A DNA stretch of 29,376 bases. Source: Desulfobacterales bacterium (GTDB taxonomy: Bacteria > Desulfobacterota > Desulfobacteria > Desulfobacterales > C00003106). Below, piece by piece: positions 2,729 through 26,870 of the stretch. Below the pieces are notes generated by a model. It did not search any database and was not told the origin of the DNA. It worked only from the letters and a program-made list of their open reading frames with translations. The first letter of the stretch is position 1. Each line of letters starts with the position of its first letter. Both the position numbers and the translations under genes were made by a program. The stretch covers positions 1 through 29,376 of the forward strand of contig DAOVGD010000040.1 of assembly GCA_030672555.1 (NCBI GenBank), written 5' to 3'.

Positions 2729-2827
2729 GGACACAGACGAACACAGATTGTCAGGATATTTATAAAGTAAGGTATTCGATAATTATAAAAAATAAGCACC
2801 TGTGTTTATCTGTGAAAATCTGTGTCC
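2729..2827. repeat. Inverted tandem-arm element with about 9-nt CACAGA units
   Basis: Left arm GGACACAGACGAACACAGATT 2729-2749; right arm CTGTGTTTATCTGTGAAAATCTGTGTCC 2800-2827; AT-rich spacer. Confidence 0.8.
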
Positions 2828-2851
2828 CAGTTTAATAATATGTCAGACTGA

Positions 2852-3925
2852 TTAAACCAGTGTCCTTACTATGTCAAATACCATATCTACACTGATTTCC
2901 TTCATACACCCATGATCTTTTGGACACTCCGGTTGCAAGCAGGGACTGCAGGGGACATGGATGCGCACAATCTTGCTTTTTGTTCCGATCGGCCCTGTAG
3001 TTTTAGGGTTTGTGGGGCCGAATATAGCGACCAGCGGGGTGTCGAGCGCTGCGGCAACATGCATCAACCCTGAGTCGTTGGTAATAAATAGATTACATCT
3101 GCTAATCAAGGCGATGGCCTCCCCCAGGGTTGTACGTCCGCATAAGTTGATGGCCGATTTTTTTATCAATTGTGTAACCTTTTGACCTATCTCTTTTTCA
3201 CCAGGAGCCCCGAAGATAAGGATATGCGCTCCGTAGCGTTCTTGTATCTTATCTGCCAAGGCCGCGTATCGTTCAGGAAACCAACGTTTGGCAGACCCGT
3301 AGGTTGCCCCTGGATTGATCCCTACGATTTGGTCACTCTCGCCAATCCCGTATCCTGTAAGAAGCTTATCGGCAGACCTATGGTTTGATTCGCTGATCTT
3401 TAATGTGAGTCCTGTGCCGTCATGAGTTAAACCGAATGGAGTAAGTATACCCAGATAATAATCGGTTTCGTGGATATCTTTGAACTTGGCATTGCGTGTC
3501 ACCGAAACGCTGTGAGTGAGAAAAAGACCTCGCCTGTCTGTATCGTATCCAATCCTGATAGGGATACGGCTGAAAAATGCGACAATTGCGGCCTCAATGG
3601 CATTTTGAAATAGTATGGCCACGTCAAACTCTCTTTTTTTTATATCTTTGATTAATCGAATTTTGCCGCGCCATCCTTTATGACGATTATTCGCATCATA
3701 GATCATGATACGATCCACATGGGGATTTTCCTCAAAAACAGGCACAACCCACGGCTTCGCCAGTATAGTAATTTCACTGTGGGGGAAATTTCCCCGTATC
3801 GCTCGGATGGCCGGAGTAGTCAGAATAGCGTCCCCTACCCAGTTAGTGGAACGAATTAGGATACGTCTGATTGTATCGGGATCGAGTTTTTTGCTGATCT
3901 TTATTTTTGGGTTATTATCATTCAT
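2852..3925 (-). CDS. waaF: LPS heptosyltransferase II (GT9)
   Basis: RILIRSTNWVGDAILTTPAI, NPGATYGSAKRW and TNDSGLMHVAAA motifs. Confidence 0.9.
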   Translation of the reverse strand: MNDNNPKIKISKKLDPDTIRRILIRSTNWVGDAILTTPAIRAIRGNFPHSEITILAKPWVVPVFEENPHVDRIMIYDANNRHKGWRGKIRLIKDIKKREFDVAILFQNAIEAAIVAFFSRIPIRIGYDTDRRGLFLTHSVSVTRNAKFKDIHETDYYLGILTPFGLTHDGTGLTLKISESNHRSADKLLTGYGIGESDQIVGINPGATYGSAKRWFPERYAALADKIQERYGAHILIFGAPGEKEIGQKVTQLIKKSAINLCGRTTLGEAIALISRCNLFITNDSGLMHVAAALDTPLVAIFGPTNPKTTGPIGTKSKIVRIHVPCSPCLQPECPKDHGCMKEISVDMVFDIVRTLV

Positions 3926-3931
3926 GACTTT

Positions 3932-4022
3932 TTAGCAAAGCGCAAGGCGCAAGGCGCAGAGAGTAAATTGATGGTTTCGAAAAAACAAAAAAACCTTTGC
4001 TTTATGCTATGCGCTTTGCTAA
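3932..4022. repeat. Inverted heptamer-arm element with a perfect 13-bp terminal inverted repeat
   Basis: TTAGCAAAGCGCA 3932-3944 pairs with TGCGCTTTGCTAA 4010-4022; GCGCAAG units in the left arm; the right end contains the lpxL stop. Confidence 0.85.
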
Positions 4023-4921
4023 CTCTTCGGCCGTGGCCGATGACGCTTGGTTTTCCATCGTCGATGCAACCAGAACCACTGATCAGGATATTGGCGCACT
4101 ACCGATTCTATAATCTTTGTATATAGTTGAGTATTGGTTTCTACATCCTTTGCTTTGTCTCCGGTCCTGATCAGAGGGACTTCAGGGGCGCACAATATCT
4201 TGTAATGCGAACCATCGCGTACTAAAAATATAGGGACTATCGGCGCTTCGGTCTTAAGGGCAAGAAGCGCCAGGCCTTTGGTGGTAGAGGCCGGACGTCC
4301 AAAGAAATCTACGAACACACCATCACGCCTGTTAGCATTTTGGTCGAGTAAAACTCCCACCAATTTTCCTTGCTTCAGGCGTTTTAAGACCGTGCGCATG
4401 GAAGACTTCTTGGGGATTATGCCTCCTCCGTGCCATGTCCTGAGTTTGGAAACAAAGATATCCAATGGCTTAGAATCAAGCGGTCGCGCTATACTATCGG
4501 GAGGATATCCCAAGAGGGATAAAACTGCTGGGAGTAATTCCCAACTCCCTACATGAGCGCTTAGACACAATATCCCCCTCCTTTTTTGGTAGGCGGCCTG
4601 AAGGTGGTGCAATCCCTCTACCGTGATGAGACTTCCCAAGCCTTTGCGTCGAAGCTTAGGAATCAGGGTCAGCTCAAATGGAGTTTGCATCAGGTTTTCA
4701 AAGACCTTGCAGGCAATATTTCGTATCTCCCCGGGATTCTTTTCACGTCCAAAGGCATGAGTTAAATTTTCTATTGTTATGTTTCGATGCCTTTTATCAA
4801 TCAGAAAAAAAAGCCGTCCTATCAGACGTCCCAATTTACGCAACCACGTTAAGGGGATTAGTCCGAGGAGATTGAAAAATATTGTGATTATCCGATAAAT
4901 TATTTTTTCAGTGCTGTTCAT
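4019..4921 (-). CDS. lpxL: Lipid A late (lauroyl-type) acyltransferase, HtrB/LpxL family
   Basis: SAHVGSWE, LLDQ and QWFWLHRRWK motifs. Confidence 0.85.
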   Translation of the reverse strand: MNSTEKIIYRIITIFFNLLGLIPLTWLRKLGRLIGRLFFLIDKRHRNITIENLTHAFGREKNPGEIRNIACKVFENLMQTPFELTLIPKLRRKGLGSLITVEGLHHLQAAYQKRRGILCLSAHVGSWELLPAVLSLLGYPPDSIARPLDSKPLDIFVSKLRTWHGGGIIPKKSSMRTVLKRLKQGKLVGVLLDQNANRRDGVFVDFFGRPASTTKGLALLALKTEAPIVPIFLVRDGSHYKILCAPEVPLIRTGDKAKDVETNTQLYTKIIESVVRQYPDQWFWLHRRWKTKRHRPRPKS

Positions 4922-4931
4922 GTGTCATGAA

Positions 4932-5060
4932 AATTTAGGAATTTAGGAATTTAGGAATTTAGGAATTGGGGAATTAGAATCATAAAATTCGTTTAATTCG
5001 GAATCCCTAAATTCCTGAATTCGCAATTAAGCGAAGCGGCATTCGCAATTCCTCAATCCC
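4932..5060. repeat. Inverted octamer-arm element (AATTTAGG family)
   Basis: Four perfect AATTTAGG units 4932-4963 plus AATTGGGG; the right arm of AATTCCTN-type units at 5002-5060 is interrupted by GCGAAGC (5031-5037) and contains the lpxK stop. Confidence 0.9.
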
Positions 5061-6192
5061 CCGATTTGCTTTTAATAAAATTTTCGAAAGCCGGTGTATC
5101 TTCTCCAAATGATATAGATATCACAAGAATCAATGTAGGAAAAGATGCCGGGAGTCTGTTTCCGATTCTTACGTAATCCTTTTCTGTAGTAACGATATAA
5201 TCAACGTTAAGTCCCTTTGCTGTTTGCAAAATTTTTGTCACATCGCTGTTCGAATACCGGTAGTGGTCCGGGAATGGTATAAATTTTACAATAGTAGTCC
5301 CGAGTTCGGCAAGCAGGGCAGCAAAATCTTCATTTTTGGCAATTCCAGAAAAAGCAAGAACCGTTCGGCCTGTGAGAATCTCTACATTATGGGTTTTGCC
5401 GGTTGCCGGCTCTCTTAATTCGCTTGGGATGTGAGAACATCTGAAAATAGGTCTCCCGGGTAGATATTTTTGGATATCCCGAACACTATTGGTTGAGCCC
5501 TTTAGTGTTTTATGCCGGGTCAGAACAACAGCGTCTGCGCGTCTTAAGTGCTCAACAGGTTCCCGCAGCGGTCCTCTTGGGATAAGATACCCGTTTCCAA
5601 ACGGTTTTTCTGCGTCGCACAGACAAAGATTAAGATCACGTTCCAATTGAATGTGCTGAAAGGCATCATCAAGGAGTAAAATGTCGGGGTTGAATGTACT
5701 AATAGCCTTGTTCCCGGCCCGATTCCGATTACTTCCCACAACGACTGGAATTCCTTCTAGCCTGGTTGCCATCAGATAGGGCTCGTCACCGGCCTGTTCC
5801 ACTTCCATCCGGATCGTTTTTTCATTGGAAACAATCCCACCAGTCTTTTCAGCGCTCCCTCCATATCCCCGGCTGACTACGGCCACCCGGTATCCGGATC
5901 GTTTCAGCAGATCTGCTATATATATGGCAAGAGGGGTCTTGCCGGTACCCCCAACCGTCAAATTCCCGATTGAGATCACCTTGCACGGCAACTGGTTTGA
6001 TTTTATAATTCCATTTTTATAAAAGGAGGTTTTTATACGAACAATAGCACTATAGGCAAGTGAAAAAAGATAGAGGATAAACTCCAACACGGACGAAAAA
6101 GGGGCAGTATCCTCCTTTTTCATGATCGCTTCAATTTTTCTTTGTAATAGTTCACCGCAAAGACGCAAAGATCGCAAAGTCTTAAGACCCAT
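5053..6192 (-). CDS. lpxK: Tetraacyldisaccharide 4'-kinase (start uncertain: 6192 or 6123)
   Basis: VISIGNLTVGGTGKTP, SRGYG, GDEP, LDDAFQH, GPLREP and FPDHYRY motifs. Confidence 0.95.
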   Translation of the reverse strand: MGLKTLRSLRLCGELLQRKIEAIMKKEDTAPFSSVLEFILYLFSLAYSAIVRIKTSFYKNGIIKSNQLPCKVISIGNLTVGGTGKTPLAIYIADLLKRSGYRVAVVSRGYGGSAEKTGGIVSNEKTIRMEVEQAGDEPYLMATRLEGIPVVVGSNRNRAGNKAISTFNPDILLLDDAFQHIQLERDLNLCLCDAEKPFGNGYLIPRGPLREPVEHLRRADAVVLTRHKTLKGSTNSVRDIQKYLPGRPIFRCSHIPSELREPATGKTHNVEILTGRTVLAFSGIAKNEDFAALLAELGTTIVKFIPFPDHYRYSNSDVTKILQTAKGLNVDYIVTTEKDYVRIGNRLPASFPTLILVISISFGEDTPAFENFIKSKSGD

Positions 6193-6225
6193 TCAATTCC
6201 CCAATTCCTCAATTCCTCAATTCCT
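6153..6225. repeat. Chimeric junction: CGCAAAGA-unit arm next to a CAATTCCT-unit arm
   Basis: CGCAAAG x3 at 6156-6179; CAATTCC(C/T) x4 at 6194-6225, containing the waaA stop at 6209-6211. Confidence 0.85.
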
Positions 6226-7525: not shown

Positions 7526-7551
7526 CAGTTCACGTCCTTTTTGGTTTTATA

Positions 7552-7644
7552 GATTTAGGAATTTAGGGATTCAGGAATTGTTTGGATCTCGGTCTATTCT
7601 AATTCACAATTCCCCAATTCCTTAATCCTTAAATTCCCCAATTC
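7552..7644. repeat. Inverted octamer-arm element (AATTTAGG family)
   Basis: Left arm GATTTAGG AATTTAGG GATTCAGG AATTG 7552-7580; right arm CAATTCCC CAATTCCT TAATCCTT AAATTCCC CAATT(C) from 7608. Confidence 0.85.
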
Positions 7645-7647
7645 ATA

Positions 7648-8724: not shown

Positions 8725-8747
8725 AGTAACAGTTCAGCTATTCTCTT

Positions 8748-8834
8748 GAGAGGATAAACAGAAACGGCGGGATAATTTTTTGTCCTGTTTTTGGATTAAC
8801 TGGATTTATATCATGTCTATCCTGTTATCCTGTC
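8748..8834. repeat. Degenerate inverted element with CAGGAT-type units
   Basis: GAGAGGATAAACAG 8748-8761 and GGATTAACTGGATT 8793-8806 oppose ATCCTGTTATCCTGTC 8819-8834. Confidence 0.45.
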
Positions 8835-8873
8835 AAAATATTTTTTATCTGGTGAATTATTACTTTCATATAA

Positions 8874-10052
8874 TCAACTTTCGTCCCGTGAGCGCACAAG
8901 TTGGCGAAGGCGTTCAGACAGACGATTAAAAAGACTCAAAAGCTTTATAGGCTCTTCTCTTGATGCCTTTCGCACCATAAAGATTGTCAGCGCTCCGAGA
9001 AAGATATTTGGGAACCAAATCCCCAGCGCTGGGGGATAAATACCGGAGTCATCGAAGCTCTTCCCCGCAGCAAAAAGGATATAATAAAGGAGAAAAATTC
9101 CAAGGCCGAATGATACACCCCCGGGCGAGCCGGAGATTTTCGTCTGCATCCCCAGAGGTACGGCAATCAGGCCGAGAATAATACAGGACAGAGGAAACGC
9201 AAATTTCTTGTGAAGCTCCATTAAGTAAAGATTATATTCTATGTCCTTGCTCTTGCATGATTTGAGCTTTGCAATAAGTTCTGAGATAGACATTTCGCTC
9301 TTTCTAATCCCTCTCTCTTCCCGGGTTTTCGCCAATTGCTGCAGATCGAGGGATAATTCATACGTGCTGAACCAAATAGTATCAGAACTCGTCATGTCTT
9401 GGCTGTCGTAGTGAATATTGCCTTCGATCAGTTTAAGCGCCAATCTCTTTTGCTCGGGGTCTGACACTATAACCCCCTTTTTAGCAATGATAGTATTTGA
9501 GAGACGCGGATCTCTTTTGTCCGAAATAAAAATGTCTTGTAGAAATTTTCCTGAAACATCTACTTCATTGGCATAAAGGACTATATCTTTAAAGTCGTCA
9601 TTGAAATGGCGGGGTTTTATCCCAGCGTATGCCCTTTCACTTGCCACTGAATAAACCAGCTCATTGAAGGCTCGTTTCCCTTTTGGCATGGCATAGATAG
9701 CCATATAGCTTGCGCATAGATAAGCAAATACAGAAAGAACAAAAACCGGAGGAAGGATCTGGTAAAGGCTGATGCCGGAAGCCTTGATTGCAGTCATTTC
9801 GTTATCATGAGAAAGCCTTAAAAAAGTCAAAAGCACGGCCAATAGCGTGGAAATCGGCAATGTAAATACAAAGGAATAGGGGAGGGTATATAGAATTAAA
9901 AGACCTATTGCGGATGGTGGCACCCCTTTGTTTATTATGAGATCTGTAAAGGTAAATACCTTTGTGACGAGGAGAACGAAAGTAAAGGTGATGATGCTGA
10001 CAGTAAAAAACTGAAAAAGTTCTTTTAAAATATATCGATGAAGGATGGTCAT
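8874..10052 (-). CDS. lptF: LPS export ABC transporter permease LptF
   Basis: RLSHDNEMTAIKASGISL and ELHKKFAFPLSC motifs; first of the pair, directly after msbA. Confidence 0.85.
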   Translation of the reverse strand: MTILHRYILKELFQFFTVSIITFTFVLLVTKVFTFTDLIINKGVPPSAIGLLILYTLPYSFVFTLPISTLLAVLLTFLRLSHDNEMTAIKASGISLYQILPPVFVLSVFAYLCASYMAIYAMPKGKRAFNELVYSVASERAYAGIKPRHFNDDFKDIVLYANEVDVSGKFLQDIFISDKRDPRLSNTIIAKKGVIVSDPEQKRLALKLIEGNIHYDSQDMTSSDTIWFSTYELSLDLQQLAKTREERGIRKSEMSISELIAKLKSCKSKDIEYNLYLMELHKKFAFPLSCIILGLIAVPLGMQTKISGSPGGVSFGLGIFLLYYILFAAGKSFDDSGIYPPALGIWFPNIFLGALTIFMVRKASREEPIKLLSLFNRLSERLRQLVRSRDES

Positions 10053-10183
10053 TTGTCATTTATCATTAGTCATTTGACATCTGTCATTTATCATTTAAGA
10101 ATCCCGGTTTGGAGGGCTTATATTCCAAGCGAGAATCAATGCGATTTTCAATGATAAATGATAAATGAGAGATGATCAATGAT
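10049..10183. repeat. Inverted heptamer-arm element (TCATTTG / AAATGAT)
   Basis: Seven TCATTTR-like units 10049-10097 and five AAATGAT-like units 10149-10183; contains the lptF ATG and the msbA TGA. Confidence 0.9.
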
Positions 10184-11927: not shown

Positions 11928-11933
11928 CTGTTA

Positions 11934-12122
11934 CTGGTTACTGGTTTCTGGTTTCTGGTTGCTGGTTTCTGACCTCTGACTTCTGACTTCTGACCTCTGA
12001 TTTCTGACTTCTGACTTCTGACCCCTGACTTCTGACCTCTGACCTCTGACCTCTGACCTCTGATTTCTGACCTCTGACTTCTGACCTCTGACTTCTGACC
12101 TCTGACCTCTGACTTCTGGTTA
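11934..12122. repeat. 27 x 7-nt tandem array (CTGACYT / CTGGTTN)
   Basis: Five CTGGTTN units 11934-11968, 21 CTGAYYY units 11969-12115 and one CTGGTTA unit 12116-12122; 189 bp in total. Confidence 0.95.
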
Positions 12123-13909: not shown

Positions 13910-13913
13910 CTAA

Positions 13914-14015
13914 GCTTCGCTTTGCTTCGCAATTGGTCGAGTTGTTAAATCGTCGAGTGGTCGAGTCGGATATTGGTTGCCCACTCAACAACTCGACAAC
14001 TATACCACTCGACTA
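13914..14015. repeat. Inverted octamer-arm element (GAGTnGTY family) with terminal GCGAAGC motif
   Basis: TGGTCGAG-type units 13934-13965; CCACTCGA-type units 13981-14015 ending in the stop of the upstream gene; GCTTCGC x2 at 13914-13930. Confidence 0.85.
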
Positions 14016-14960: not shown

Positions 14961-15111
14961 TTTTGCAATTTGCTCCTGTCTATAGATTTTAAGATAAAGT
15001 TTTTGGGGTTCATAATCATTCTATTATCACGGATAATTTAGGGATTTCGAATTAGAGGAATTCTATATCTTACGTTTCGATAGTTTTTATTGTATTCTTC
15101 GAATTAAATAC

Positions 15112-15127
15112 ACACTATATCTTGTGT
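15112..15127. promoter_or_regulatory. NrdR-box-like operator
   Basis: ACACTATATCTTGTGT matches the consensus acaCwAtATaTwGtgt at 15 of 16 positions; single copy, with no ribonucleotide reductase gene in the window. Confidence 0.35.
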
Positions 15128-15200
15128 CTGGCTCGAAATACGCGCGATAGGTAATGTGTCTCTCGTTGGATTCTTGGGTTATTACTCGCGAAACCCGGCT

Positions 15201-15264
15201 GTTAAGCCGTTGAGTTGCTGATCTACGATACGTTGCCGTTGGTCCATAAACTCAGCCACTTAAC
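15201..15264. repeat. Imperfect hairpin with two octamer-like units per arm
   Basis: GTTAAGCCGTTGAGTT 15201-15216 pairs with AACTCAGCCACTTAAC 15249-15264 at 14 of 16 positions (one G-T pair). Confidence 0.6.
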
Positions 15265-15343
15265 GGTGGGCAATGCCCACCCTACAGTATTGCAAATAAC
15301 ACTCTGAAATGGCTAATCTTTCGTAGGGTGGGCATTGCCCACC
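15265..15343. repeat. GTAG-type REP doublet (REPIN-like)
   Basis: GGTGGGCAATGCCCACCCTAC 15265-15285 and its exact reverse complement GTAGGGTGGGCATTGCCCACC 15323-15343; each has an internal palindrome and a GTAG foot. Confidence 0.85.
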
Positions 15344-15570
15344 ATTTTCGGCTATTAAATTAGATTTGACCATTTAAAACTAGCGAAACGTATGCTATAT
15401 GGTTCTAATTCCTAAATTCCTGAATCCCTCAATTCCTTTTAGTACAAAACGGTACTATTATCAGAATTACAACAAAATGAAAACAGCTATCACTGAAATC
15501 TGTGAATTGACGGGGCTAAGTTCCCTTTTTCAAGGAAAAATGTTATCTCTCTTTTAAGAAAAAAGTGTTA

Positions 15571-16806
<1,236 letters not shown>

Positions 16807-16814
16807 TAAGTTAA

Positions 16815-17145: not shown

Positions 17146-17274
17146 GCAATTAAATCGGCATAAAGATGAAGGATCTTGACTTTTTAATGAAAGGTTACTA
17201 ATGAATATACCATAATCATGTAAAATTTTTCACTATAATTATTTTTTTATGCGTCGAATAGTAAAAGGAATGTT

Positions 17275-17574: not shown

Positions 17575-17585
17575 GAGGTGATAAA

Positions 17586-18086: not shown

Positions 18087-18089
18087 CAC

Positions 18090-18138
18090 GGATTGAGGAT
18101 TGACGATTGACGATTGAAGATTGAGGATTGAAGATTGA
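18090..18138 (+). repeat. 7 x 7-nt tandem array VGATTGA
   Basis: GGATTGA GGATTGA CGATTGA CGATTGA AGATTGA GGATTGA AGATTGA; one more AGATTGA unit follows at 18345-18351. Confidence 0.95.
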
Positions 18139-18163
18139 TGGTTTCGTAAAAAGTCTCGGTAGC

Positions 18164-18311
18164 TTGTCATTTCGAGCGACCTGCCCGCCATAGCCATGTA
18201 TGCCGGCATTGTGGTTGCCAAGCTAACTAGGCGTTGGCAGGCGGGAGCGAGAAATCTTTATCCTGTAATATGCTGAAAATATAAGATTTCTTCCCGCGGT
18301 CGAAATGACAA
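18164..18311. repeat. REP-like palindrome TGTCATTTCGA...AGAAATCT / AGATTTCT...TCGAAATGACA
   Basis: Perfect 12-bp IR at 18164-18175 / 18300-18311 and 8-bp IR at 18250-18257 / 18284-18291. Confidence 0.8.
18180..18245. mobile_element. 66-bp GC-rich hairpin insert splitting a GCGAAGC motif
   Basis: Ends CCTGCCCGCC / GGCAGGCGGG; removing the insert restores TCGAGCGAAGCGAGAAATCT, matching the length of the opposite arm. Confidence 0.6.
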
Positions 18312-18360
18312 ATTCGTTGAATCCGACTTTTTACGAGATCATCAAGATTGACCAATAACT

Positions 18361-18654
18361 GTGAAATTATCAATACAAGAAACCGGAAAAGGTGTTTTAT
18401 TTAAAGCGGTTATTCAACCCAGATCTTCCAAAAACATTATTGTAGGCATCCATGGTGATGCGTTAAAGATCAAATTGACGGCTCCCCCGGTTGAGGGCGC
18501 GGCGAACAAGCTTTGCGTCAAGTTCCTTGCATCCATATTAAAAGTATCCCCATCTGATATAGAGATTGTCAGCGGACAGAGCGGACGAAAGAAAAAGATC
18601 CTTGTTCATTCGGTAACTCGCAAGTATTTAGAGTCAAAACTATCCCTTATTTAA
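18361..18654 (+). CDS. DUF167 / YggU family protein
   Basis: IQPRSSKN...LKIKLTAPPVEGAANK...IVSGQSGRKK; GTG start. Confidence 0.9.
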   Translation: MKLSIQETGKGVLFKAVIQPRSSKNIIVGIHGDALKIKLTAPPVEGAANKLCVKFLASILKVSPSDIEIVSGQSGRKKKILVHSVTRKYLESKLSLI

Positions 18655-18695
18655 CCACTCGACCACTCGACTACTCGACCACTCGACCCGAAGCG
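18653..18695. repeat. Solo octamer arm (GACYACTC) with shortened terminal motif
   Basis: AACCACTC GACCACTC GACTACTC GACCACTC GACC, then CGAAGCG; overlaps the DUF167 stop. Confidence 0.85.
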
Positions 18696-18737
18696 TTTCC
18701 CTTGACTCCTTACTATCCTTTTGATAATCATTTTCAC

Positions 18738-21700: not shown

Positions 21701-22214
21701 ACAGGTGAGAATCGGAGGAGTAGTAAGTAGCTTTAAGGTGATTACTGACCGAAAAGGGGGGAGGATGGCGTTTGTAACATTAGAGGATCTGCACGGCTTC
21801 GTGGAAGTGACCCTCTTTGCTTCGGTCTATGAGAAGGTATCGGAATTCATAGATACGGATGTCCCTATTTTGGTAGACGGTCATATAACCAAGGACGAAA
21901 AGTCAGTAAAAATATTAGCAGATTCCGTAAGCCCGCTTTCAAAAGCAGAAGAGCTGAGCGCCACAGCAGTAAATTTTAATATTGATGTAACAGGGATTGA
22001 TAAGGAGCAACTAAAAGAGTTTCGTTCAATATTGGGCAACTATAAAGGGGAATGCCCCGCCTTTATCAATCTGCGAATTCCACGAAAGTCAGAGACTGTA
22101 ATCGCGCTCCCCGATTCACTGAGAGTACAACCAGGACACGCGCTTTCCGAAGCAGTGGATCGTTATTTCGGGCAAGAAGTAGTTGAAATCGTGTTTCAAG
22201 GGACCGCTAAATGA
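18738..22214 (+). CDS. dnaE: DNA polymerase III alpha subunit
   Basis: PHP domain FIHLHVHTEYSLLDG, GPGRGSAAGSLVAY, MPDIDVDF, KFDFLGL, GYGFNKSHS and OB fold; ATG 18738 preferred over TTG 18702. Confidence 0.98.
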   Translation: MSTSDFIHLHVHTEYSLLDGAIRLDDLIHKAESYGMSAVTMTDHGTMFGALSFYKKVSKAGMRPIIGCEVYVAPKSRFDKNPHDKSGGSYHLVLLARNKKGYQNLCRLATIAQLEGFYYKPRIDKEVLREHSEGLIALSACLHGEIPRLIQKDRIDLAKEVALFYQSLFGEGRFYLEVQANGIAEQEKVNAALLEMSRELSIPLVATNDCHYLNSQDVRAHEILLCIQTGKTIHDEKRFRFRTDQLYFKSPDEMKKDFASYPGAIENSVHIAGQCNVELEFGKYHFPKFPIDPGETAAERMARNAETGLKQRLQEIGERHQGPVDEEQYRKRLRYEIDVIQKMGFPGYFLVVADFIRYAKEAGVPVGPGRGSAAGSLVAYSLGITELDPIEYGLIFERFLNPGRQSMPDIDVDFCMDKREAVFKYVLDKYGGPDHVAQIITFGKLQARAVIRDVGRALDIPLREVDVIAKLIPDVLKITIEQAIQQEPRLRKMEREDPRVKELLSIARVLEGLPRHASTHAAGVVISGRPLVEYLPLYKGSKGEVVTQYDMKCVEAIGLIKFDFLGLRTLTVIDHALKLIRERHGNAPDISRLDMEDTKTFELLCAGKTTGVFQLESSGMKDILVKLKPESFNEIIALVALYRPGPLESGMVDDFIKRKHGKVEVAYLVPELEPILKDTYGVILYQEQAMKIASVLANYSMAEADNLRKAMGKKVSEIMVQERKRFLEGANDNGIDLKKAEAIFDLIEKFGGYGFNKSHSAAYALIVYQTAYLKANYPIEFMASVLTSEMGTTDNVVKYITECRNQGIPVLPPDINESGKDFTVVEQSIRFGLAAIKNVGEGAIESIIAARETDGSFKSIYDFCERVDLRRVNKRVVESLIKCGAFDSTGAKRSQMLYVMEDALEIGQKRQKDRISGQFNLFGATAQEGGVQPTLPDMEEWPENQRLAFEKETLGFFVTGHPLAKYEKILSKYTSADTLKILDFPDGRQVRIGGVVSSFKVITDRKGGRMAFVTLEDLHGFVEVTLFASVYEKVSEFIDTDVPILVDGHITKDEKSVKILADSVSPLSKAEELSATAVNFNIDVTGIDKEQLKEFRSILGNYKGECPAFINLRIPRKSETVIALPDSLRVQPGHALSEAVDRYFGQEVVEIVFQGTAK

Positions 22215-22942
22215 AAGCCTACACTGAGAGAACATATCGGAATATTATTTCTGAAAACAAGCTTACATCGTTTCGGGTCGTTGTCAAGGAGACCGATCTG
22301 TTGGTGAGAGCGGATCGGGAATTGGTAGCTGAAACAGAAAAAAGTGTTATAAGGCATCGTAGACTTATAGAGGAATATATGGATCGATTCCCCTCTTTTT
22401 TACATACATTGACTCCCTTTCCGGATGACCAATTTGCGCCTCCTGTTGTTCGGGACATGGTCGAGGCGGGAAAGCTTGCCGGTGTGGGCCCAATGGCATC
22501 TGTTGCGGGTGCAATTGCAGAATGGGTTGGACGTGATCTTTTAAATTATTCCCAAGAGATTGTCGTGGAGAATGGTGGGGATATTTTTATAAAAACAGAC
22601 AAGCCGTTTACGGCGGGAATTTTTGCCGGGTCCTCACCGTTGAGTAATAAAGTGGGGCTCGAAATAGACCCCGGAGATAAGCAGATTGCGGTCTGTACTT
22701 CTTCCGGAACAGTGGGACATTCTCTTAGTATGGGTAAATCTGATGCCGTAACAGTGGTGTCTCGTTCCGCATCCCTGGCAGATGCGACCGCTACCGCTGT
22801 CGGGAATCTGATTTCTGATAAAAAGGCTATAGACAAGGGGCTAACATTTGCGGAGTCGATCGCAGGGGTAATAGGCGTTGTAATTGTGGTCGGCGACAGA
22901 CTCGGTGTAAGGGGGGATCTGAAGCTGGTACGGACTGGTTGA
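22211..22942 (+). CDS. UPF0280 family (ApbE-like) protein
   Basis: ETDLLV, VGPMASVAGAI, ENGGDI, CTSSGTVGHSLS and ADATATA motifs; ATGA overlap with dnaE. Confidence 0.9.
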   Translation: MKAYTERTYRNIISENKLTSFRVVVKETDLLVRADRELVAETEKSVIRHRRLIEEYMDRFPSFLHTLTPFPDDQFAPPVVRDMVEAGKLAGVGPMASVAGAIAEWVGRDLLNYSQEIVVENGGDIFIKTDKPFTAGIFAGSSPLSNKVGLEIDPGDKQIAVCTSSGTVGHSLSMGKSDAVTVVSRSASLADATATAVGNLISDKKAIDKGLTFAESIAGVIGVVIVVGDRLGVRGDLKLVRTG

Positions 22943-23060
22943 GTCGTCGAATGGTCAAATGGTTGAGTGGTTTGTTTCTAACAACTTGACGACTTGACGA
23001 TTTGACCACTTGACCATTTAACGACTTGACCGCTTAACCAATTGCGAAACGAAGTGGAGC
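22933..23060. repeat. Inverted octamer-arm element (GAGTnGTY family) with terminal motif
   Basis: Five left units 22933-22972, eight right units 22980-23043, and TTGCGAAACGAAGTGGAGC 23042-23060; contains the UPF0280 stop. Confidence 0.9.
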
Positions 23061-23078
23061 AATTTTCTCGGAGGAAAT

Positions 23079-23462
23079 ATGAAGAAATTTAAACTGATAC
23101 TCTTGTTGATTATTGCCGCCTTTATAGGCCTTTTTGTATATCAAAATTTGGCGGTTTTTACACATCTCTTTGACTTGAAACTCAATATCGGGATTAAGCG
23201 CTACGAGATGCTTAATATTCAATCTTCTCTTATCCTTTTAAGTTTGTTTCTGCTTGGATTTTTACTTGCCTATTTTCTCAGCCTGGGAGAACGTTTGAAA
23301 GCAAGAAGGGCTCTGAAGTCGAACAGTGAGAAGATAAAGGACCTGGAAGAAGAGTTAAATATGCTTAAGGGCGTGTCTGCAACCGTTGAAAGCGCCACAG
23401 ATGAAGATACTGCACCGGAAGACGTTGTTTCTGAAGAGCCTCCCTCAGAAGGAAGAACTTAG
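23079..23462 (+). CDS. LapA-domain (DUF1049-like) membrane protein
   Basis: Two hydrophobic helices with the FVYQN motif, then coiled coil and an acidic tail; GGAGG Shine-Dalgarno. Confidence 0.7.
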   Translation: MKKFKLILLLIIAAFIGLFVYQNLAVFTHLFDLKLNIGIKRYEMLNIQSSLILLSLFLLGFLLAYFLSLGERLKARRALKSNSEKIKDLEEELNMLKGVSATVESATDEDTAPEDVVSEEPPSEGRT

Positions 23463-23471
23463 GGGGACAAA

Positions 23472-23498
23472 ATGGAGTAATGGACTCCAATACTCCAT
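23472..23498. repeat. Minimal collapsed element with GGAGTAAT-type units
   Basis: ATGGAGTAATGGA-C-TCCAATACTCCAT: a 12/13 inverted repeat around a 1-nt centre. Confidence 0.75.
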
Positions 23499-23564
23499 GT
23501 CCATGGCAGAAACACGCTATTTCAATAAGCTTAAAAATTTGTAAGCATTTAAAAGTGTCCGTCC

Positions 23565-26180
23565 ATGTCGGTTAAAATCACTCCAATGGTACAGCAGTAC
23601 CATTCTATAAAAAAGGAGTATCCTGACGCACTCCTTTTTTATAGAATGGGCGATTTTTATGAGATGTTCTTTGAAGATGCTGAGATTGCCTCCCGTATCC
23701 TCGACATTACCTTAACATCCCGAAATAAAAAAGATGACAAACCTATTCCAATGTGTGGAGTCCCATATCACGCCGCACAGAGATATATTGCGCGCTTGAT
23801 AGAGAATGGATACAAGGTTGCTGTCTGTGAACAGGTCGAAGATCCACGTCAAGCAAAAGGGCTAGTAAAGCGGGATGTGGTCCGTGTAGTGACTCCGGGT
23901 GTGGTTATTGATACGGAACTATTGGATGCCAAATCAAACAATTTTATTATGGCGCTGTTCCGTTACAAAGGTTATTTTGGGCTTGCTTGTCTTGACATCT
24001 CTACTGGTGACTTTCGAGTAACCGAGTCGGATTCCTTCAATGCTGTCGTTGACGAGTCTTTGCGTATAGATCCGAGCGAGATTCTTATTCCAGGATCGAT
24101 TCGAGAGGATTCGGAAATCAAGGTCCTTCTATCCTATTTGAACGAAAGAACGGTCTCTCTATTAGACGATTCCCTGTTTGAATTAGATAGAGCTCAAACC
24201 GCACTTTTAAAACAATTCAATACCCATTCCCTGGAGGGGTTCGGATGTGATGAAATGCATGCGGGGATCTCGGCTGCAGGAGCCCTTTTTCAATATATTC
24301 ACGAAACGCAAAAGGGTATAGTCCCGCATGTCAATCATATTGTCGCATATTTTCTTGCGGACTATATGGTGCTGGATGATACCACAAAGAGAAACCTGGA
24401 ACTTTTTGAGACCATACGTACCCGTTCAAGGACAGGAACACTCCTTTGGGTACTTGATAAGACCATGACTTCCATGGGTGGTCGGATGATTCGTCAATGG
24501 TTGAATTATCCTCTCCTTGACGCGGAAAAGTTAAGGCTCCGGCTGGACGCAGTGGAAGAGGCAAAGGAAAATATAACATTGCGTGGGGCACTGCGTGATG
24601 CACTTTCAGGTGTTTATGACCTGGAGCGTCTGAACTCGAGAATTGTCTTAGCTCACTCCAATGCCCGGGATCTTATTGCCCTGAAGCGTTCTGTTAGAAA
24701 AATCCCGGAGATTAGCACCTTGATAGAAACATTTCAATCCGATCTGTTTCGGCAAATCCAGATAGAGTTGGATGACCTGGCCGATGTGGGGGATATGATC
24801 GAAGAGTCGATTTGCGATGACCCGCCACATACCATTCATGAAGGTGGGATGATCAAGCCCGGGTGCAATGCAGAGCTGGATGAGATTGTAAGTATCTGTA
24901 AAGGCGGCAAAGAGTGGATCGCGAGTTTAGAAGCAAAGGAGCGGGAGACAACCGGAATAAATTCATTAAAAGTCGGTTTTAATAAGGTCTTTGGATACTA
25001 TATTGAAGTTTCAAAAACCCATATCAAATCAGTTCCTTCTTATTACGTTCGCAGGCAGACATTGGTGAATGCAGAGAGATATATTACAGAAGACCTAAAG
25101 AGATACGAAACTAAGGTGTTAACTGCCGAGGAGAGACGGGCTGCGCTGGAATATGACCTCTTTAATGGAATAAGGGGAAAGATAATACAAAACAACCTCC
25201 GAATTCAAAAGACCGCAACTCTGTTGGCAAAGTTGGATGTCCTTTGTTCTTTAGCAGAGGTGGCGGACAAAAATGGTTACGTAAAACCGGGGATCAAGGA
25301 AGACGGAATACTCTTTATGGAAGATGTCCGTCATCCGGTGATCGAGAAGATGATGGCAGGGGAACGGTTCGTTCCCAACACAATAAAGATGGATGATGAA
25401 GACCGGCAGGTCTTGATTGTTACGGGCCCTAATATGGCCGGCAAATCAACGATCTTACGTCAGGTTGCGTTAGTGGTGTTGATGGCACAGGTCGGCTCGT
25501 TTGTCCCTGCCGAATCTGCTTCCCTAAGTATTGTAGATCGTATATTTACACGAGTCGGAGCGCTTGACAACTTGGGGCAGGGAGAGAGTACTTTTATGGT
25601 GGAAATGCAGGAGACTGCCAGGATTTTGAATGCTGCTACAGAAAAAAGCCTGATTATACTTGATGAGATCGGAAGGGGGACCAGTACCTTTGACGGGCTT
25701 AGTATCGCATGGGCTGTTGCCGAATACCTTCATGACAGGAAGGGGAGGGGTATTAAAACCATTTTTGCCACCCATTATCATGAACTGACCGATCTTGCCG
25801 CTACCAAGTCGCGAGTAAAAAATTACAATGTTGCTGTAAGAGAGTGGAATGGGGAGATCATTTTTTTAAGAAAGCTGATCGAAGGCGGAACAAATAGAAG
25901 TTATGGAATCCAAGTAGCAAGGTTGGCCGGCATTCCCAAAGATGTTGTAGAAAGAGCAAAAGAGGTCCTCAAAAATATTGAAAAAGGCGAGCTGAACGAA
26001 GAAGGAGAACCAAACATTGCTCGCTCCAAAAAAAGACCGAAAAAACATGCTGATGTGCAGTTAACACTTTTTAAAACTTCCAATCATGCATTGGTGGATA
26101 AACTGGAACAGATAGACGTTTCCAACACGACACCTCTTGAAGCTCTAAATGTGCTGAATGAATTAAAGCAGATGATTTAA
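23565..26180 (+). CDS. mutS: DNA mismatch repair protein MutS
   Basis: TPMVQQY, FYRMGDFYEMF, PMCGVP, TGPNMAGKST, STFMVEM, DEIGRGTST, FATHYHEL and SYGIQVA motifs. Confidence 0.98.
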   Translation: MSVKITPMVQQYHSIKKEYPDALLFYRMGDFYEMFFEDAEIASRILDITLTSRNKKDDKPIPMCGVPYHAAQRYIARLIENGYKVAVCEQVEDPRQAKGLVKRDVVRVVTPGVVIDTELLDAKSNNFIMALFRYKGYFGLACLDISTGDFRVTESDSFNAVVDESLRIDPSEILIPGSIREDSEIKVLLSYLNERTVSLLDDSLFELDRAQTALLKQFNTHSLEGFGCDEMHAGISAAGALFQYIHETQKGIVPHVNHIVAYFLADYMVLDDTTKRNLELFETIRTRSRTGTLLWVLDKTMTSMGGRMIRQWLNYPLLDAEKLRLRLDAVEEAKENITLRGALRDALSGVYDLERLNSRIVLAHSNARDLIALKRSVRKIPEISTLIETFQSDLFRQIQIELDDLADVGDMIEESICDDPPHTIHEGGMIKPGCNAELDEIVSICKGGKEWIASLEAKERETTGINSLKVGFNKVFGYYIEVSKTHIKSVPSYYVRRQTLVNAERYITEDLKRYETKVLTAEERRAALEYDLFNGIRGKIIQNNLRIQKTATLLAKLDVLCSLAEVADKNGYVKPGIKEDGILFMEDVRHPVIEKMMAGERFVPNTIKMDDEDRQVLIVTGPNMAGKSTILRQVALVVLMAQVGSFVPAESASLSIVDRIFTRVGALDNLGQGESTFMVEMQETARILNAATEKSLIILDEIGRGTSTFDGLSIAWAVAEYLHDRKGRGIKTIFATHYHELTDLAATKSRVKNYNVAVREWNGEIIFLRKLIEGGTNRSYGIQVARLAGIPKDVVERAKEVLKNIEKGELNEEGEPNIARSKKRPKKHADVQLTLFKTSNHALVDKLEQIDVSNTTPLEALNVLNELKQMI

Positions 26181-26255
26181 CAGGGCATCTGGACAATATG
26201 TAGTTAATATGATATATCGATTCACAACATCTTGTATGTTTTATTGGGGGGTATC

Positions 26256-26765
26256 TTGAGAGAGGTTGCATCCTGTTATCGTATTTTTGGACTGGATGAA
26301 AGAGCGACATTTAATGATATTAAATTGGCCTACCGAAAATTGGCAAAGAGGTATCATCCGGATATTGTCTCAAACAGAAATGGATCTAACAATTTTGCAG
26401 GCGTGGAAAGACTCAAAAAGATCAATAGCGCCTATGACTATCTCCGACGCAGACATATTGAAAGTAGACGTAATCTCTACTCAGGATGGTTGGGATTTAG
26501 CATCATTATGGGAAGGTTCAACAATAAGACGTGTCCAGTGGTATCTCACGTGTCGGAATGCTCTCCGGCAGTGCTCGCAGGGCTTTGTGTTGATGATTAT
26601 ATAATCGGTTTTAATGATTGTAACACACTTGGAATGGCAAGGGAGGAGATCGTTAAGATTTTTTCAGGAAAAGCCGGAATTCCGGTAAAAATGAAGGTTT
26701 ATCGTAAAACCAAAGAAACTATATACACGCTATATGCAATACGTCTACCGCGTCCTCATCGTTAG
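26256..26765 (+). CDS. J-domain (DnaJ-like) plus PDZ-like domain protein
   Basis: IKLAYRKLAKRYHPD J-domain; C-terminal GWLGFSI...SPAVLAGL...DDYII...G...PVKMKVYR PDZ-like pattern. The ORF opens at 26232; TTG 26256 follows GGGGG. Confidence 0.7.
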   Translation: MREVASCYRIFGLDERATFNDIKLAYRKLAKRYHPDIVSNRNGSNNFAGVERLKKINSAYDYLRRRHIESRRNLYSGWLGFSIIMGRFNNKTCPVVSHVSECSPAVLAGLCVDDYIIGFNDCNTLGMAREEIVKIFSGKAGIPVKMKVYRKTKETIYTLYAIRLPRPHR

Positions 26766-26870
26766 TCGAGTAGTCAAGGTTAGTCGAGTAGTCAAATCGT
26801 TAAGTGGTCAAGTCGTTAAATTTTACCTGCCTGACCATTTGACCACTCGACTACTCAACCACTTGACCAA
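26761..26870. repeat. Inverted octamer-arm element (GAGTnGTY family) between convergent genes
   Basis: GTTAGTCGAGTAGTCAA twice (26761-26777, 26779-26795), further left units to 26820, right units 26833-26870. Confidence 0.85.

What the first reader, a model, noticed from the sequence alone, without database searches (positions are those of the whole stretch)
2729..26870. A system of tandem-arm inverted elements occupying almost every gene junction
Seen: about 18 intergenic elements made of degenerate 7-, 8- or about 9-nt tandem units, usually a purine-rich arm and a complementary pyrimidine-rich arm around a short spacer. Families recur: GAGTnGTY (13934, 16703, 18653, 22933, 26761), AATTTAGG (4932, 6194, 7552, 15035), GCGCAAG/GAGCATA (3932, 15583), plus TCATTTG, CTGACYT, VGATTGA, CACAGA, CGCAAAGA, CAGGAT and GGAGTAAT types. 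They fill 9 of the 10 junctions in the LPS operon; the exception is lpxB/DUF374, where the genes overlap. Much of the unit variation is A/G in purine arms and C/T in pyrimidine arms, which preserves pairing through G-T. Inference: different unit sequences sharing one architecture and one genomic niche suggest non-autonomous selfish elements with a common mobilisation mechanism acting on folded ssDNA or RNA. From memory, and not checkable here, similar arms flank small cargo genes such as four-helix-bundle (23S_rRNA_IVP) and GxxExxY (PDDEXK_3) proteins in other genomes, so these may be the empty forms. No mobilising enzyme is encoded in the window.
Basis: partly seen in the sequence, partly recalled or inferred. 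Interest (0 to 1): 0.88.

Follow-up and report, generated by a model that had tools for sequence, protein, structure and literature searches.

The report
Mobile repeat-armed hairpins at gene junctions
Almost every gap between genes in this marine-sediment sulfate-reducer relative holds a small hairpin whose arms are runs of 7-9-base repeats; these are mostly gene-less leftovers of small mobile cassettes carrying a four-helix-bundle or small nuclease gene, which may explain a kind of bacterial repeat whose origin has been unclear since 1990.

Summary
Sixteen of 20 junctions between 2710 and 26876 carry tandem 7-9-nt arrays, and about 11 of these form paired hairpins.

Genome-wide (a 1.79 Mb MAG; its relatives are Desulfobacterales MAGs), I find 288 such hairpins. 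457 of 694 intergenic arrays have an inverted partner, against 12 in a non-complement control.

The selfish-DNA reading is largely supported:
- Orthologous junctions in congeners are empty, or hold a different unit family, or differ in unit number.
- Elements nest inside one another.
- All seven small cargo genes found in this genome (five four-helix-bundle 23S_rRNA_IVP genes, two GxxExxY genes, one of them next to a GIY-YIG-like ORF) sit flush between arms of the same unit families.
- In two families the gene-less hairpins still hold pieces of the cargo ORF, with shared deletion breakpoints. They are deletion derivatives that went on multiplying.

The proposed ssDNA/RNA mobilisation is not supported. 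The one family whose ends can be read (AGGTTCA) has GTAAC... terminal repeats identical to those of IS66-family transposase elements in relatives, plus 8-bp target duplications. Y1/HUH transposase counts do not track repeat density; four-helix-bundle gene counts do. Only about 4% of hairpins, and none in the window, have such ends, so the mobiliser of most families is unknown.

This scan has reported the same cassette type on other DNA, in at least 41 genomes.

The parts
2729..2827 (.). CACAGA-type palindromic element between two heptosyltransferase genes (GGACACAGACGAACACAGA ... TCTGTGAAAATCTGTGTCC).
   Evidence: Sequence. Folds at z -6.2 (+) and -4.3 (-). G001 and G002 hold a GTTGCGA hairpin at this junction instead. 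The same element, with the same loop start, sits at another junction in G003.
3932..4018 (.). GCGCAAG arm (3935-3958) with a degenerate complementary arm (about 3995-4018).
   Evidence: The fold is weak (z -1.5). G001 and G002 each hold a different family here.
4932..5022 (.). AATTTAGG octamer hairpin (arms 4932-4975 and 5002-5022).
   Evidence: z -4.4/-6.3. G001 has an AATATCG/AAATCCG element and G002 a CGCAAAG hairpin at this junction.
6156..6225 (.). Two unpaired arms of different families: CGCAAAGAT (6156-6179, inside the lpxK 5' end) and AATTCCCC (6193-6225).
   Evidence: No significant fold. G001 has a 0-nt spacer and G002 a 124-nt unrelated element.
7553..7644 (.). AATTTAGG-family hairpin (arms 7553-7580 and 7607-7644).
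   Evidence: z -3.7. G001 has a CGCAGAT hairpin, and G002 has only a 30-nt remnant.
8750..8834 (.). CAGGAT/ATCCTGT-type hairpin between lptF and lptG.
   Evidence: z -3.8. In G003 the two genes are 4 nt apart, an empty site.
10048..10183 (.). GTCATTT/AATGATA heptamer hairpin with a 52-nt loop, between msbA and lptF/G.
   Evidence: z -5.5. It is 96% identical in G001 and present in G002. G003 holds a nested CACAGA+GTTGCGA composite instead, and G005 is empty with 2 nt.
11930..12118 (.). One-sided heptamer array, GTTWCTG x6 then TCTGACY x21.6, that fills the DUF374-msbA spacer.
   Evidence: G001 has the same array with only about 7+2 units, G002 a CGCAAAGA hairpin and G005 a GTTCACG array.
13910..14013 (.). 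GGTCGAGT-family (GAGTnGTY) hairpin (arms 13934-13966 and 13983-14013) with a cap motif at 13910-13932.
   Evidence: z -4.5/-5.7. Absent in G001 and G002 (23-nt spacer) and in G003 (0 nt). The cap occurs 11 times in the genome.
15035..15437 (.). AATTTAGG-family arms about 345 nt apart (about 15035-15062 and 15407-15437) that enclose other repeats, including a REP-like inverted pair at 15265-15343.
   Evidence: G001 has a 350-nt spacer without these arms.
15571..15624 (.). Single GAGCATA arm (15583-15611) flanked by a 12-nt direct duplication, GTATGTCAATAT, that includes the tgt start codon.
   Evidence: G001 has a related array at the same place.
16700..16806 (.). GGTCGAGT-family hairpin (arms 16700-16738 and 16750-16788) plus the cap TTGCGAAACGAAGTGGAGC. 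The left arm supplies the last codons and the stop codon of tgt.
   Evidence: z -6.9/-7.4. Absent in G001, and G002 holds a CGCAAAG remnant.
18090..18351 (.). GGATTGA heptamer array (18090-18138) interrupted by a 211-nt MITE with TGATGGTTTCGTAAAAAGTC... terminal repeats (18139-18350).
   Evidence: G002 has the array without the MITE, G001 an AAATCCG-family element, and G005 a 16-nt spacer. The MITE is multicopy in the genus.
18654..18688 (.). Single ACCACTCG arm (4.4 units) after the DUF167 gene.
   Evidence: G001 and G002 have 2 units; G004 has 0 nt.
22936..23060 (.). GGTCGAGT-family hairpin (arms 22936-22972 and 22984-23040) plus the cap motif.
   Evidence: z -5.4. G001 has no hairpin, G002 a nested CGCAGA+GTTGCGA composite, and G003 and G005 other palindromes.
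23463..23502 (.). Small GGAGTAAT hairpin after the lapA-like gene.
   Evidence: z -2.9/-4.9. G001 has a longer version with a nested GGGTTGCG hairpin, G002 has a 12-nt spacer, and G003 lacks it.
26761..26869 (.). GGTCGAGT-family hairpin in a convergent junction. The left arm overlaps the stop codon of the DnaJ-PDZ gene.
   Evidence: z -5.4/-9.7. Present in G001, G002 and G003 with different unit numbers: 79, 49 and about 60 nt.

Best explanation
The junction elements are a population of small palindromic mobile cassettes and their gene-less derivatives.

A full cassette is one small gene set flush between two inverted arms, each arm a run of a 7-9-nt unit. The gene encodes a four-helix-bundle protein of the 23S_rRNA_IVP/Avd-like family or a GxxExxY PD-(D/E)XK protein (in one case next to a GIY-YIG-like ORF). 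Internal deletion of the gene leaves a hairpin, and the hairpin goes on spreading like a MITE.

Shown here:
- Insertion, loss and replacement at orthologous junctions.
- Dispersal of identical deletion derivatives.
- Nesting of elements inside one another.
- Unit gain and loss within arrays.
- For the AGGTTCA family, terminal repeats shared with IS66-family transposase elements, plus 8-bp target duplications.

Inferred:
- An IS66-type DDE transposase moves that family in trans.
- Copies survive at gene ends because only the few non-coding bases there tolerate insertion.
- Arm complementarity mainly reflects shared unit and origin rather than selection for pairing.

Unknown: what moves the other families, including all those in the window, and what the cargo proteins do.
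For: Architecture:
- 457 of 694 intergenic arrays have an inverted partner, against 12 in the control.
- This gives 288 hairpins with a median length of 103 nt.

Turnover, across 20 junctions and up to 5 congeners at 70-90% coding identity:
- Empty sites exist at 8725, 10053, 13910, 18087 and 23463.
- The window is itself the empty allele at 22214, where G001 and G003 carry an AATTGAGG hairpin.
- Three different families occupy junctions 3926 and 4922.
- Unit number changes at 11928, 18655 and 26766.

Cargo:
- All 5 four-helix-bundle genes and both GxxExxY genes (one next to a GIY-YIG-like ORF) in G000 are flush between complementary arms.
- So are 7 of 8 more in G001, G002, G003 and G028.
- So are 4 of 4 in a Chitinophagaceae MAG and a Tissierellales MAG.

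Derivation of the empty forms:
- C175 and C213 keep the leader plus the first 30 nt of the four-helix-bundle ORF, with the same breakpoint.
- C19, C96, C122 and a G001 copy share a second breakpoint.
- At least 8 CGCAAAGA hairpins keep the last 45 nt or so of the GxxExxY ORF.

Mobility of the full cassette:
- The same gene (85-93% aa identity) with the same arms and termini sits between aroA and aroK in one organism, between two epimerase genes in another, and elsewhere in G000.

Mechanism for one family:
- Of 16 AGGTTCA copies, 5 have perfect and 4 near-perfect 8-bp target duplications.
- A blind search finds 9 GTAA-ended elements with 8-bp duplications, against 0 in a displaced control.
- An IS66-family transposase element in G028 has the terminal repeat GTAACTACTCAGG, identical over 13 nt.
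- IS66-family hallmarks are GTAA-initial terminal repeats and 8-bp direct repeats (PMC11946415; PMC12888890).

Co-occurrence:
- Array density tracks four-helix-bundle genes per Mb (rho 0.57-0.60, p about 0.003) but not Y1 transposases.
Against: - Only 11 of 273 hairpins have GTAA-type complementary ends, and none in the window does.
- Generic target duplications are not seen for most elements.
- No IS66 transposase was found in G000 itself, which is 81% complete.
- For short-loop hairpins like those in the window, the evidence for movement is indirect (junction polymorphism and family sharing), and no clean excision footprint was found.
- The 10053 hairpin is better conserved than its flanking genes (96% vs 87%), which hints at function or recent exchange rather than junk.
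- Elements sit closer to stop codons than to start codons and are depleted in divergent spacers. This fits a host RNA role as well as a selection filter.
- Array density in relatives was measured on 10-20 kb samples only.
Confidence: 0.75

Rival explanations
1. Host-beneficial RNA elements. The hairpins are kept by selection as mRNA 3'-end stabilisers, RNase III processing sites or insulators that uncouple genes within operons. Their mobility is secondary.
For: - Occupancy is 30-33% of co-directional and convergent spacers of at least 40 nt, against 13% of divergent ones.
- The median distance to the upstream stop is 17 nt, against 39 nt to the next start; 124 elements lie nearer the stop and 65 nearer the start.
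- Sense RNA folds slightly better than antisense (108 vs 79, p = 0.014).
- The hairpin at 10053 is 96% conserved between species.
- The literature proposes transcript stabilisation for cyanobacterial STRR hairpins (PMC2670836).
Against: - The same junction is empty, or holds unrelated families, in sister species with no change in gene order.
- G.U pairs are not significantly biased to the sense strand.
- The excess from mirror-order pairing is small (z 0.6).
- No junction stem with a U-tract was found on the sense strand of the LPS operon.
- There are no Rfam matches.
- Many elements contain dead ORF fragments.
Confidence: 0.1
2. In-place origin. Any 7-9-nt seed expands by replication slippage, and template switching makes it palindromic, so each hairpin arose at its own junction and nothing moves.
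For: - Unit number changes between species at 11928, 18655 and 26766, so slippage does act.
- Arms are barely more complementary in mirror order than unit-shuffled arms.
- Heptamers are the commonest long simple repeats in many bacteria (Mrazek 2007, as cited in PMC4679880).
Against: - The same unit families recur at many junctions, in other families of the order (G028, G023, G018), and around cargo genes.
- 73 of 172 long loops have a similar loop elsewhere.
- Deletion breakpoints are shared between copies at different loci.
- Target-site duplications are present.
- Sister species hold different families at one junction.
Confidence: 0.07
3. One reading: hairpins mobilised as folded single strands by a HUH/Y1 (RAYT- or IS200-like) enzyme, as for REPINs.
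For: - G000 encodes two 350-aa proteins with a RAYT-like Y1 domain fused to a DnaA C-terminal-like part.
- A GTAG-footed REP pair lies at 15265-15343 (note e1-5333866).
- Most hairpins show no target duplication, as expected for HUH transposition.
Against: - Y1 gene counts do not track array density across 26 genomes (rho -0.06). G003 and G018 have arrays but no Y1 match, while G010 has 18 matches and no arrays in the sample.
- The Y1 proteins score below the curated RAYT cut-off and are not flanked by arrays.
- The arms have no conserved foot motif.
- The one readable family has DDE-type hallmarks.
Confidence: 0.08

Closest known systems
ORF-bearing intervening sequences (IVS) of 23S rRNA (Coxiella burnetii, Leptospira; PMC4990558)
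   Same: Both are small selfish inserts bounded by inverted repeats that form a long stem, with an optional ORF of the same 23S_rRNA_IVP / S23p four-helix-bundle family. ORF-less versions exist in both cases.
   Different: Here the inserts lie between, or at the ends of, protein-coding genes rather than in rRNA helices. Their arms are tandem 7-9-nt units. Some carry GxxExxY or GIY-YIG-like genes instead. RNase III excision was not tested.
Short tandemly repeated repetitive (STRR) sequences and STRR hairpins of filamentous cyanobacteria (Mazel 1990, as cited in PMC2670836)
   Same: Both are intergenic tandem heptamers that often form hairpins between co-transcribed genes such as hupS-hupL. Their function is unknown.
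   Different: The host here is a Desulfobacterales lineage. Octamers and nonamers are as common as heptamers. The arrays are tied here to cargo genes, deletion derivatives and insertion polymorphism, a link that the papers I searched do not make.
MITEs derived from IS elements, here the IS66 family (PMC11946415, PMC12888890)
   Same: The AGGTTCA family has GTAAC-initial terminal inverted repeats identical to those of IS66-family transposase elements in relatives. It also has 8-bp target duplications, no transposase of its own, and many copies.
   Different: The internal part is not a deleted transposase gene but a four-helix-bundle cassette with heptamer arms. Only about 4% of hairpins have such ends.
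REP / REPIN elements with RAYT transposases (PMC3116915, PMC3733652)
   Same: Both are abundant extragenic palindromes at gene ends that are non-autonomous and form families.
   Different: There is no conserved GTAG/CGTC foot in the arms. The arms are tandem arrays. Abundance does not follow Y1 genes. Target duplications are present in one family.
TAACTGA heptamer repeats of marine Beggiatoaceae, cyanobacteria and Bacteroidetes (PMC4679880)
   Same: Both are intergenic heptamer arrays with a patchy, cross-phylum distribution that suggests horizontal spread.
   Different: Those are mostly direct repeats of a single unit upstream of start codons. Here there are many unit families, mostly in inverted pairs and closer to stop codons.

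Membership tests
MITE (IS66-derived) | Terminal inverted repeats shared with a transposase-encoding IS. | tested here: met
   Met for the AGGTTCA family only. GTAACTACTCAGG is identical over 13 nt to the ends of the IS66-type element in G028:C37. It is not met for the window's own elements.
MITE (IS66-derived) | Target-site duplication of the length typical for the IS family (8 bp). | tested here: met
   Among 16 AGGTTCA copies, 5 have perfect and 4 near-perfect 8-bp duplications. A blind search finds 9 GTAA-ended elements with 8-bp duplications, against 0 in a displaced control. For the remaining hairpins no duplication is seen.
MITE (IS66-derived) | A transposase present in the same genome to act in trans. 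| tested here: inconclusive
   PF03050 gives 0 matches in G000 (81% complete, 213 contigs), 5 in G001 and 3 in G028. IS copies are often left unassembled in MAGs.
23S rRNA intervening sequence (IVS) | Carries, or derives from a form carrying, a 23S_rRNA_IVP four-helix-bundle ORF between inverted repeats. | tested here: met
   See (TIGR02436).
23S rRNA intervening sequence (IVS) | Inserted in an rRNA helix and excised from the transcript by RNase III. | tested here: not met
   All copies seen lie between protein-coding genes. RNase III cleavage cannot be tested with these tools, and no RNA runs hold the sequence.
Cyanobacterial STRR | Intergenic tandem heptamer arrays, often hairpin-forming. 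| tested here: met
   
Cyanobacterial STRR | Occurs in heterocystous or filamentous cyanobacteria. | tested here: not met
   The nearest genomes are titled Desulfobacterales, Deltaproteobacteria or Candidatus Desulfaltia MAGs.
REP/REPIN-RAYT | A conserved palindrome with a GTAG/CGTC foot, and a RAYT gene whose presence goes with the repeats. | tested here: not met
   The arms have no common foot. Y1 counts are uncorrelated with array density. The Y1 genes are not flanked by arrays.

The most novel reading that the evidence does not exclude
Tandem-arm cassettes may be one widespread, undescribed class of mobile element found across phyla. On this reading the four-helix-bundle (Avd-like) or small nuclease cargo works with its own repeat arms, for example with each unit acting as a binding site. 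The rRNA intervening sequences would be the same elements landed in rRNA, and the STRR and heptamer arrays of cyanobacteria, Beggiatoaceae and Bacteroidota would be their gene-less remains. IS66-type ends would then be one of several vehicles these cassettes have captured. The strand-symmetric order, purine-rich arm first and pyrimidine-rich arm second (79% of hairpins, and all the cargo forms I looked at), would be a mark of the unknown insertion or arm-building chemistry.
Probability: 0.3. Interest if true: 0.85.

Novelty: new variant of a known kind. Interest (0 to 1): 0.7.

Why it matters
**Origin of a long-known repeat class.** Short tandem heptamer and octamer arrays between bacterial genes have been known since 1990. 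They are used for strain typing, but their origin and role are still called unknown in the papers I read. Here the arrays can be traced in two families to mobile cassettes that carry a gene of the equally unexplained "23S rRNA intervening-sequence protein" family or a GxxExxY nuclease-fold gene.

**A concrete enzyme for one family.** For the AGGTTCA family a specific transposase type (IS66) can be named. That turns two loose ends of genome annotation into one testable system.

**Practical consequences.**
- These elements rewrite gene ends. They supply stop codons, split overlapping genes and fill operon spacers.
- They probably contribute to the fragmentation of metagenome assemblies of this lineage (not tested here).
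- They differ between close species, so they could serve as markers.

Tried and rejected
- **Cyanobacterial origin.** I first took the window for a Nostocales genome because of the STRR-like repeats. Titles of related genome records show Desulfobacterales.
- **Stop codons as the reason for arm order.** The first arm met by a reader has stops in all three frames in only 18% of cases, the same as the second arm. Only 50 of 1339 genes end inside an arm. This is a by-product, not a design.
- **RNA-level selection through G.U pairs.** The sense/antisense difference is small. In the window's LPS operon the antisense strand folds better at 7 of 8 hairpins.
- **True mirror palindromy.** Shuffling unit order lowers complementarity only slightly (mean z 0.6).
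- **Long-range arm pairs (250-2500 nt).** Inverted and direct matches are equally common (42 vs 40). The exception is a class 360-520 nt apart, which are the cargo cassettes.
- **Generic target-duplication scan on all 288 hairpins.** There is no clear signal: k = 8 gives 2 hits, and k = 4 gives 25 against 10 in the control.
- **IS66-type ends for all families.** Only 11 of 273 have them.
- **Other searches.** Rfam gave no match. The intrinsic-terminator scan found no junction stem with a U-tract on the operon's sense strand. No RNA sequencing runs hold the stretch, so no reads were laid.
- **Literature.** Searches for a description of repeat-armed four-helix-bundle cassettes found none. Elhai et al. 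2008 on small dispersed repeats is not held in the library.
Full report
**What is in the window**

The window is contig C147 of a 1.79 Mb, 213-contig MAG. It came from marine sediment. Its genes are ordinary housekeeping genes:
- An 11-gene LPS operon on the minus strand: two heptosyltransferases, a lipid A acyltransferase, lpxK, kdtA, lptF, lptG, msbA, DUF374, lpxB and a GFO/IDH/MocA oxidoreductase.
- Then tgt, a zinc-ribbon gene, divIVA, a DUF167 gene, dnaE, an unknown gene, a lapA-like gene, mutS, a DnaJ-PDZ gene and flgM.
- No transposase.

The nearest public genomes are titled Desulfobacterales, Deltaproteobacteria and Candidatus Desulfaltia MAGs. This is not a cyanobacterium, although the repeats look like cyanobacterial STRRs.

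Tandem Repeats Finder and direct reading show period-7 to period-9 arrays at 16 of 20 junctions between 2710 and 26876, and at 9 of the 10 LPS-operon junctions. About 11 junctions are two-arm hairpins that fold far better than dinucleotide shuffles, with z down to -9.7. Four sites are single arms or one-sided arrays: 6156/6193, 11930-12118, 15583 and 18654.

Genome-wide:
- There are 433 period-7, 312 period-8 and 140 period-9 arrays.
- 704 of 1016 arrays of period 6-10 are intergenic, in a genome that is about 85% ORF.
- 457 of 694 intergenic arrays have an inverted partner within 250 nt, against 70 direct partners and 12 in a reversed, non-complement control.
- Merging these gives 288 hairpins with a median length of 103 nt and a median loop of 35 nt.

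**Position and shape**
- Hairpins occupy 30-33% of co-directional and convergent spacers of at least 40 nt, but only 13% of divergent ones, even though divergent spacers are the longest.
- They lie nearer the upstream stop codon (median 17 nt) than the next start codon (median 39 nt).
- The 5' arm is purine-rich in 221 of 280 hairpins. This property reads the same on both strands, and I could not explain it.
- It is not explained by stop-codon supply: only 18% of first arms have stops in all three frames, the same as second arms.
- Arms are 87% Watson-Crick paired in their best register. Mismatches are 276 transitions to 324 transversions, and G.U pairs show no significant bias to the sense strand.
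- Shuffling unit order lowers complementarity only a little (mean z 0.6).
- So the arms pair chiefly because they are inverted arrays of one unit, not because each pair is maintained.

**The elements come and go**

I compared 20 junctions with up to five congeners at 70-91% coding identity.
- The same junction holds different unit families in different species. At 2710 the window has CACAGA and G001/G002 have GTTGCGA. Junctions 3926 and 4922 each hold three different families.
- Some alleles are empty. At 8725, G003 has 4 nt. At 10053, G005 has 2 nt. At 13910, G001 and G002 have 23 nt and G003 has 0. At 23463, G002 has 12 nt.
- At 22214 the window itself is the empty allele, with dnaE and the next gene overlapping in ATGA. 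G001 and G003 carry an AATTGAGG hairpin there that replaces the last dnaE codons and supplies its stop codon.
- Unit numbers change at 11928 (27 vs 9 units), 18655 and 26766.
- Elements nest. G003 has a GTTGCGA hairpin inside the loop of a CACAGA element whose loop matches the window's 2729 element. G003 also has a MITE inside an AATTGAGG hairpin.
- One hairpin, at 10053, is 96% identical between G000 and G001 although the flanking genes are about 87% identical.

- All five 23S_rRNA_IVP (TIGR02436 four-helix-bundle) genes in G000 sit flush between complementary tandem arms. So does a GxxExxY gene next to a GIY-YIG-like ORF (named from its motif; no family match), and so does a second GxxExxY gene.
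- The arm units are the same families as in the empty hairpins: AGGTTCA, GTTACGG, GGTCGAGT, AATTGAT, GAGTGAA, CACAAAGA and CGCAAAGA.
- 7 of 8 further four-helix-bundle genes in G001, G002, G003 and G028 are framed the same way.
- So are 4 of 4 in a Chitinophagaceae MAG and a Tissierellales MAG.
- Across 26 genomes of the order, array density in 10-20 kb samples follows the number of four-helix-bundle genes per Mb (rho 0.57; 0.60 with one genome per genus; p about 0.003). It does not follow Y1 transposase genes (rho about 0).

**Empty hairpins are deletion derivatives**

In the AGGTTCA family the full cassette has this order: GTAACTACTCAGGTT, then heptamers, then the leader AAGGTTAGAGAGCG, then ATG and the ORF, then heptamers, then AACCTGAGTAGTTAC.
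- Copies in C175 and C213 keep the leader and the first 30 nt of the ORF and then jump to the right arm, with the same breakpoint.
- Copies in C19, C96, C122 and G001 share a second breakpoint.
- Copies in C149 and C189 keep an internal 72-nt ORF piece.

In the CGCAAAGA family, at least eight gene-less hairpins keep the last 45 nt or so of the GxxExxY ORF. Shared breakpoints at different loci mean that the derivatives themselves multiplied.

The full AGGTTCA cassette also moves between genomes. Its protein has more than 120 homologues at 85-93% identity. These sit between aroA and aroK in one organism and between two epimerase genes in Eth-SRB2-like genomes, always with the same arms and termini.

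**Mechanism**

For the AGGTTCA family:
- Of 16 copies, five have perfect 8-bp target duplications (CATTTTTT, TTTTTTTT, CGGAGACT, TAAGGAGG, TACGAATA) and four have near-perfect ones.
- A blind search for GTAA...TTAC-ended palindromic pairs finds nine with 8-bp duplications, against none in a displaced control and 0-2 for other end motifs. The hits include elements with TTTGTGAC arrays and ACTTTAG-like ends.
- IS66-family DDE transposase elements in G028 and G001 carry the same kind of ends. G028:C37 has GTAACTACTCAGG, identical over 13 nt.
- GTAA-initial terminal repeats and 8-bp direct repeats are the published hallmarks of the IS66 family (PMC11946415; PMC12888890).

So this family is best read as a cargo-bearing MITE moved in trans by an IS66-type transposase. 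This is inferred, not shown, and no such transposase was found in the 81%-complete G000.

This does not generalise. Only 11 of 273 hairpins have such ends, none of them in the window, and a generic duplication scan is negative. Other hairpin modules sit inside MITEs with different ends, such as ATAAGCGCTCAAATAAG... and TGATGGTTTCGTAAAAAGTC....

It is not excluded for the families that lack duplications.

**Comparison with what is known**
- STRR hairpins between co-transcribed genes are called "not unusual" in filamentous cyanobacteria, with unknown function (PMC2670836).
- Heptamer arrays are reported in Beggiatoaceae, cyanobacteria and Bacteroidetes (PMC4679880).
- 23S rRNA intervening sequences with an S23p ORF are treated as selfish elements (PMC4990558).
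- I found no paper that links these three things, or that describes repeat-armed four-helix-bundle or GxxExxY cassettes at gene junctions. The library is incomplete: Elhai 2008 is not held.
- This scan has reported the same cassette type on other DNA in at least 41 genomes. I reached the cargo result before reading those notes, and tested the cross-phylum claim only on four genes.

**Verdict**

The feature is real and genome-wide. It is best explained as mobile IVS-like cassettes and their MITE-like derivatives (confidence 0.75). One family is tied to IS66-type transposition. What moves the other families is unknown, and so is the role of the cargo proteins.

Noticed in passing
window 10053-10175: This hairpin differs at only 5 of 123 positions between G000 and G001, while the flanking lptF/G and msbA genes are about 87% identical. 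G002 also keeps it. This points to either recent exchange or a constrained RNA or DNA element.
   Followed up: partly
window 18139-18350, and G003/G001 loci L084 and L080: A 211-nt MITE with terminal repeats TGATGGTTTCGTAAAAAGTC...GACTTTTTACGAGATCATCA is inserted in the GGATTGA array. Relatives of it sit in hairpin loops and spacers of G003, and it gives dozens of hits across the genus.
   Followed up: partly
window 15265-15343; G000 C45:1701-2759 and C29:357-1391: There is a perfect 21-nt REP-like inverted pair ending in GTAG (GGTGGGCAATGCCCACCCTAC). The genome also encodes two 350-aa proteins with a RAYT-like Y1 domain fused to a DnaA C-terminal-like part. Such fusions occur 1-6 times per genome throughout the order.
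   Followed up: partly
window 15571-15624: A 12-nt direct duplication, GTATGTCAATAT, which includes the tgt start codon, brackets a single 30-nt GAGCATA arm. G001 has a related array at the same place, so the event predates the species split.
   Followed up: partly
window 13910-13932, 16788-16806 and 23042-23060, plus 8 other G000 sites: A 19-nt cap, TTGCGAAACGAAGTGGAGC, followed by TAAGTT, sits at one end only of GGTCGAGT-family hairpins. There are 11 copies in the genome. This is a possible end-recognition site for that family.
   Followed up: partly
G000 C54:3583, C80:9143, C115:11932, C132:2855, C155:1176: Five near-identical MITEs of about 215 nt have terminal repeats ATAAGCGCTCAAATAAG and an internal AATTGAC hairpin. 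Three are flanked by long C-rich direct repeats of 11-17 nt, which may be part of a host element they inserted into.
   Followed up: no
genome-wide (G000): The purine- or G-rich arm comes first on both strands in 79% of hairpins and in every cargo cassette I inspected. This is a strand-symmetric polarity with no explanation so far.
   Followed up: partly
window 28024-29181: An AAA_14 + DUF4143 ATPase gene lies at the window's end, just after a 383-nt spacer that has no arrays. I did not connect it with the repeats.
   Followed up: no
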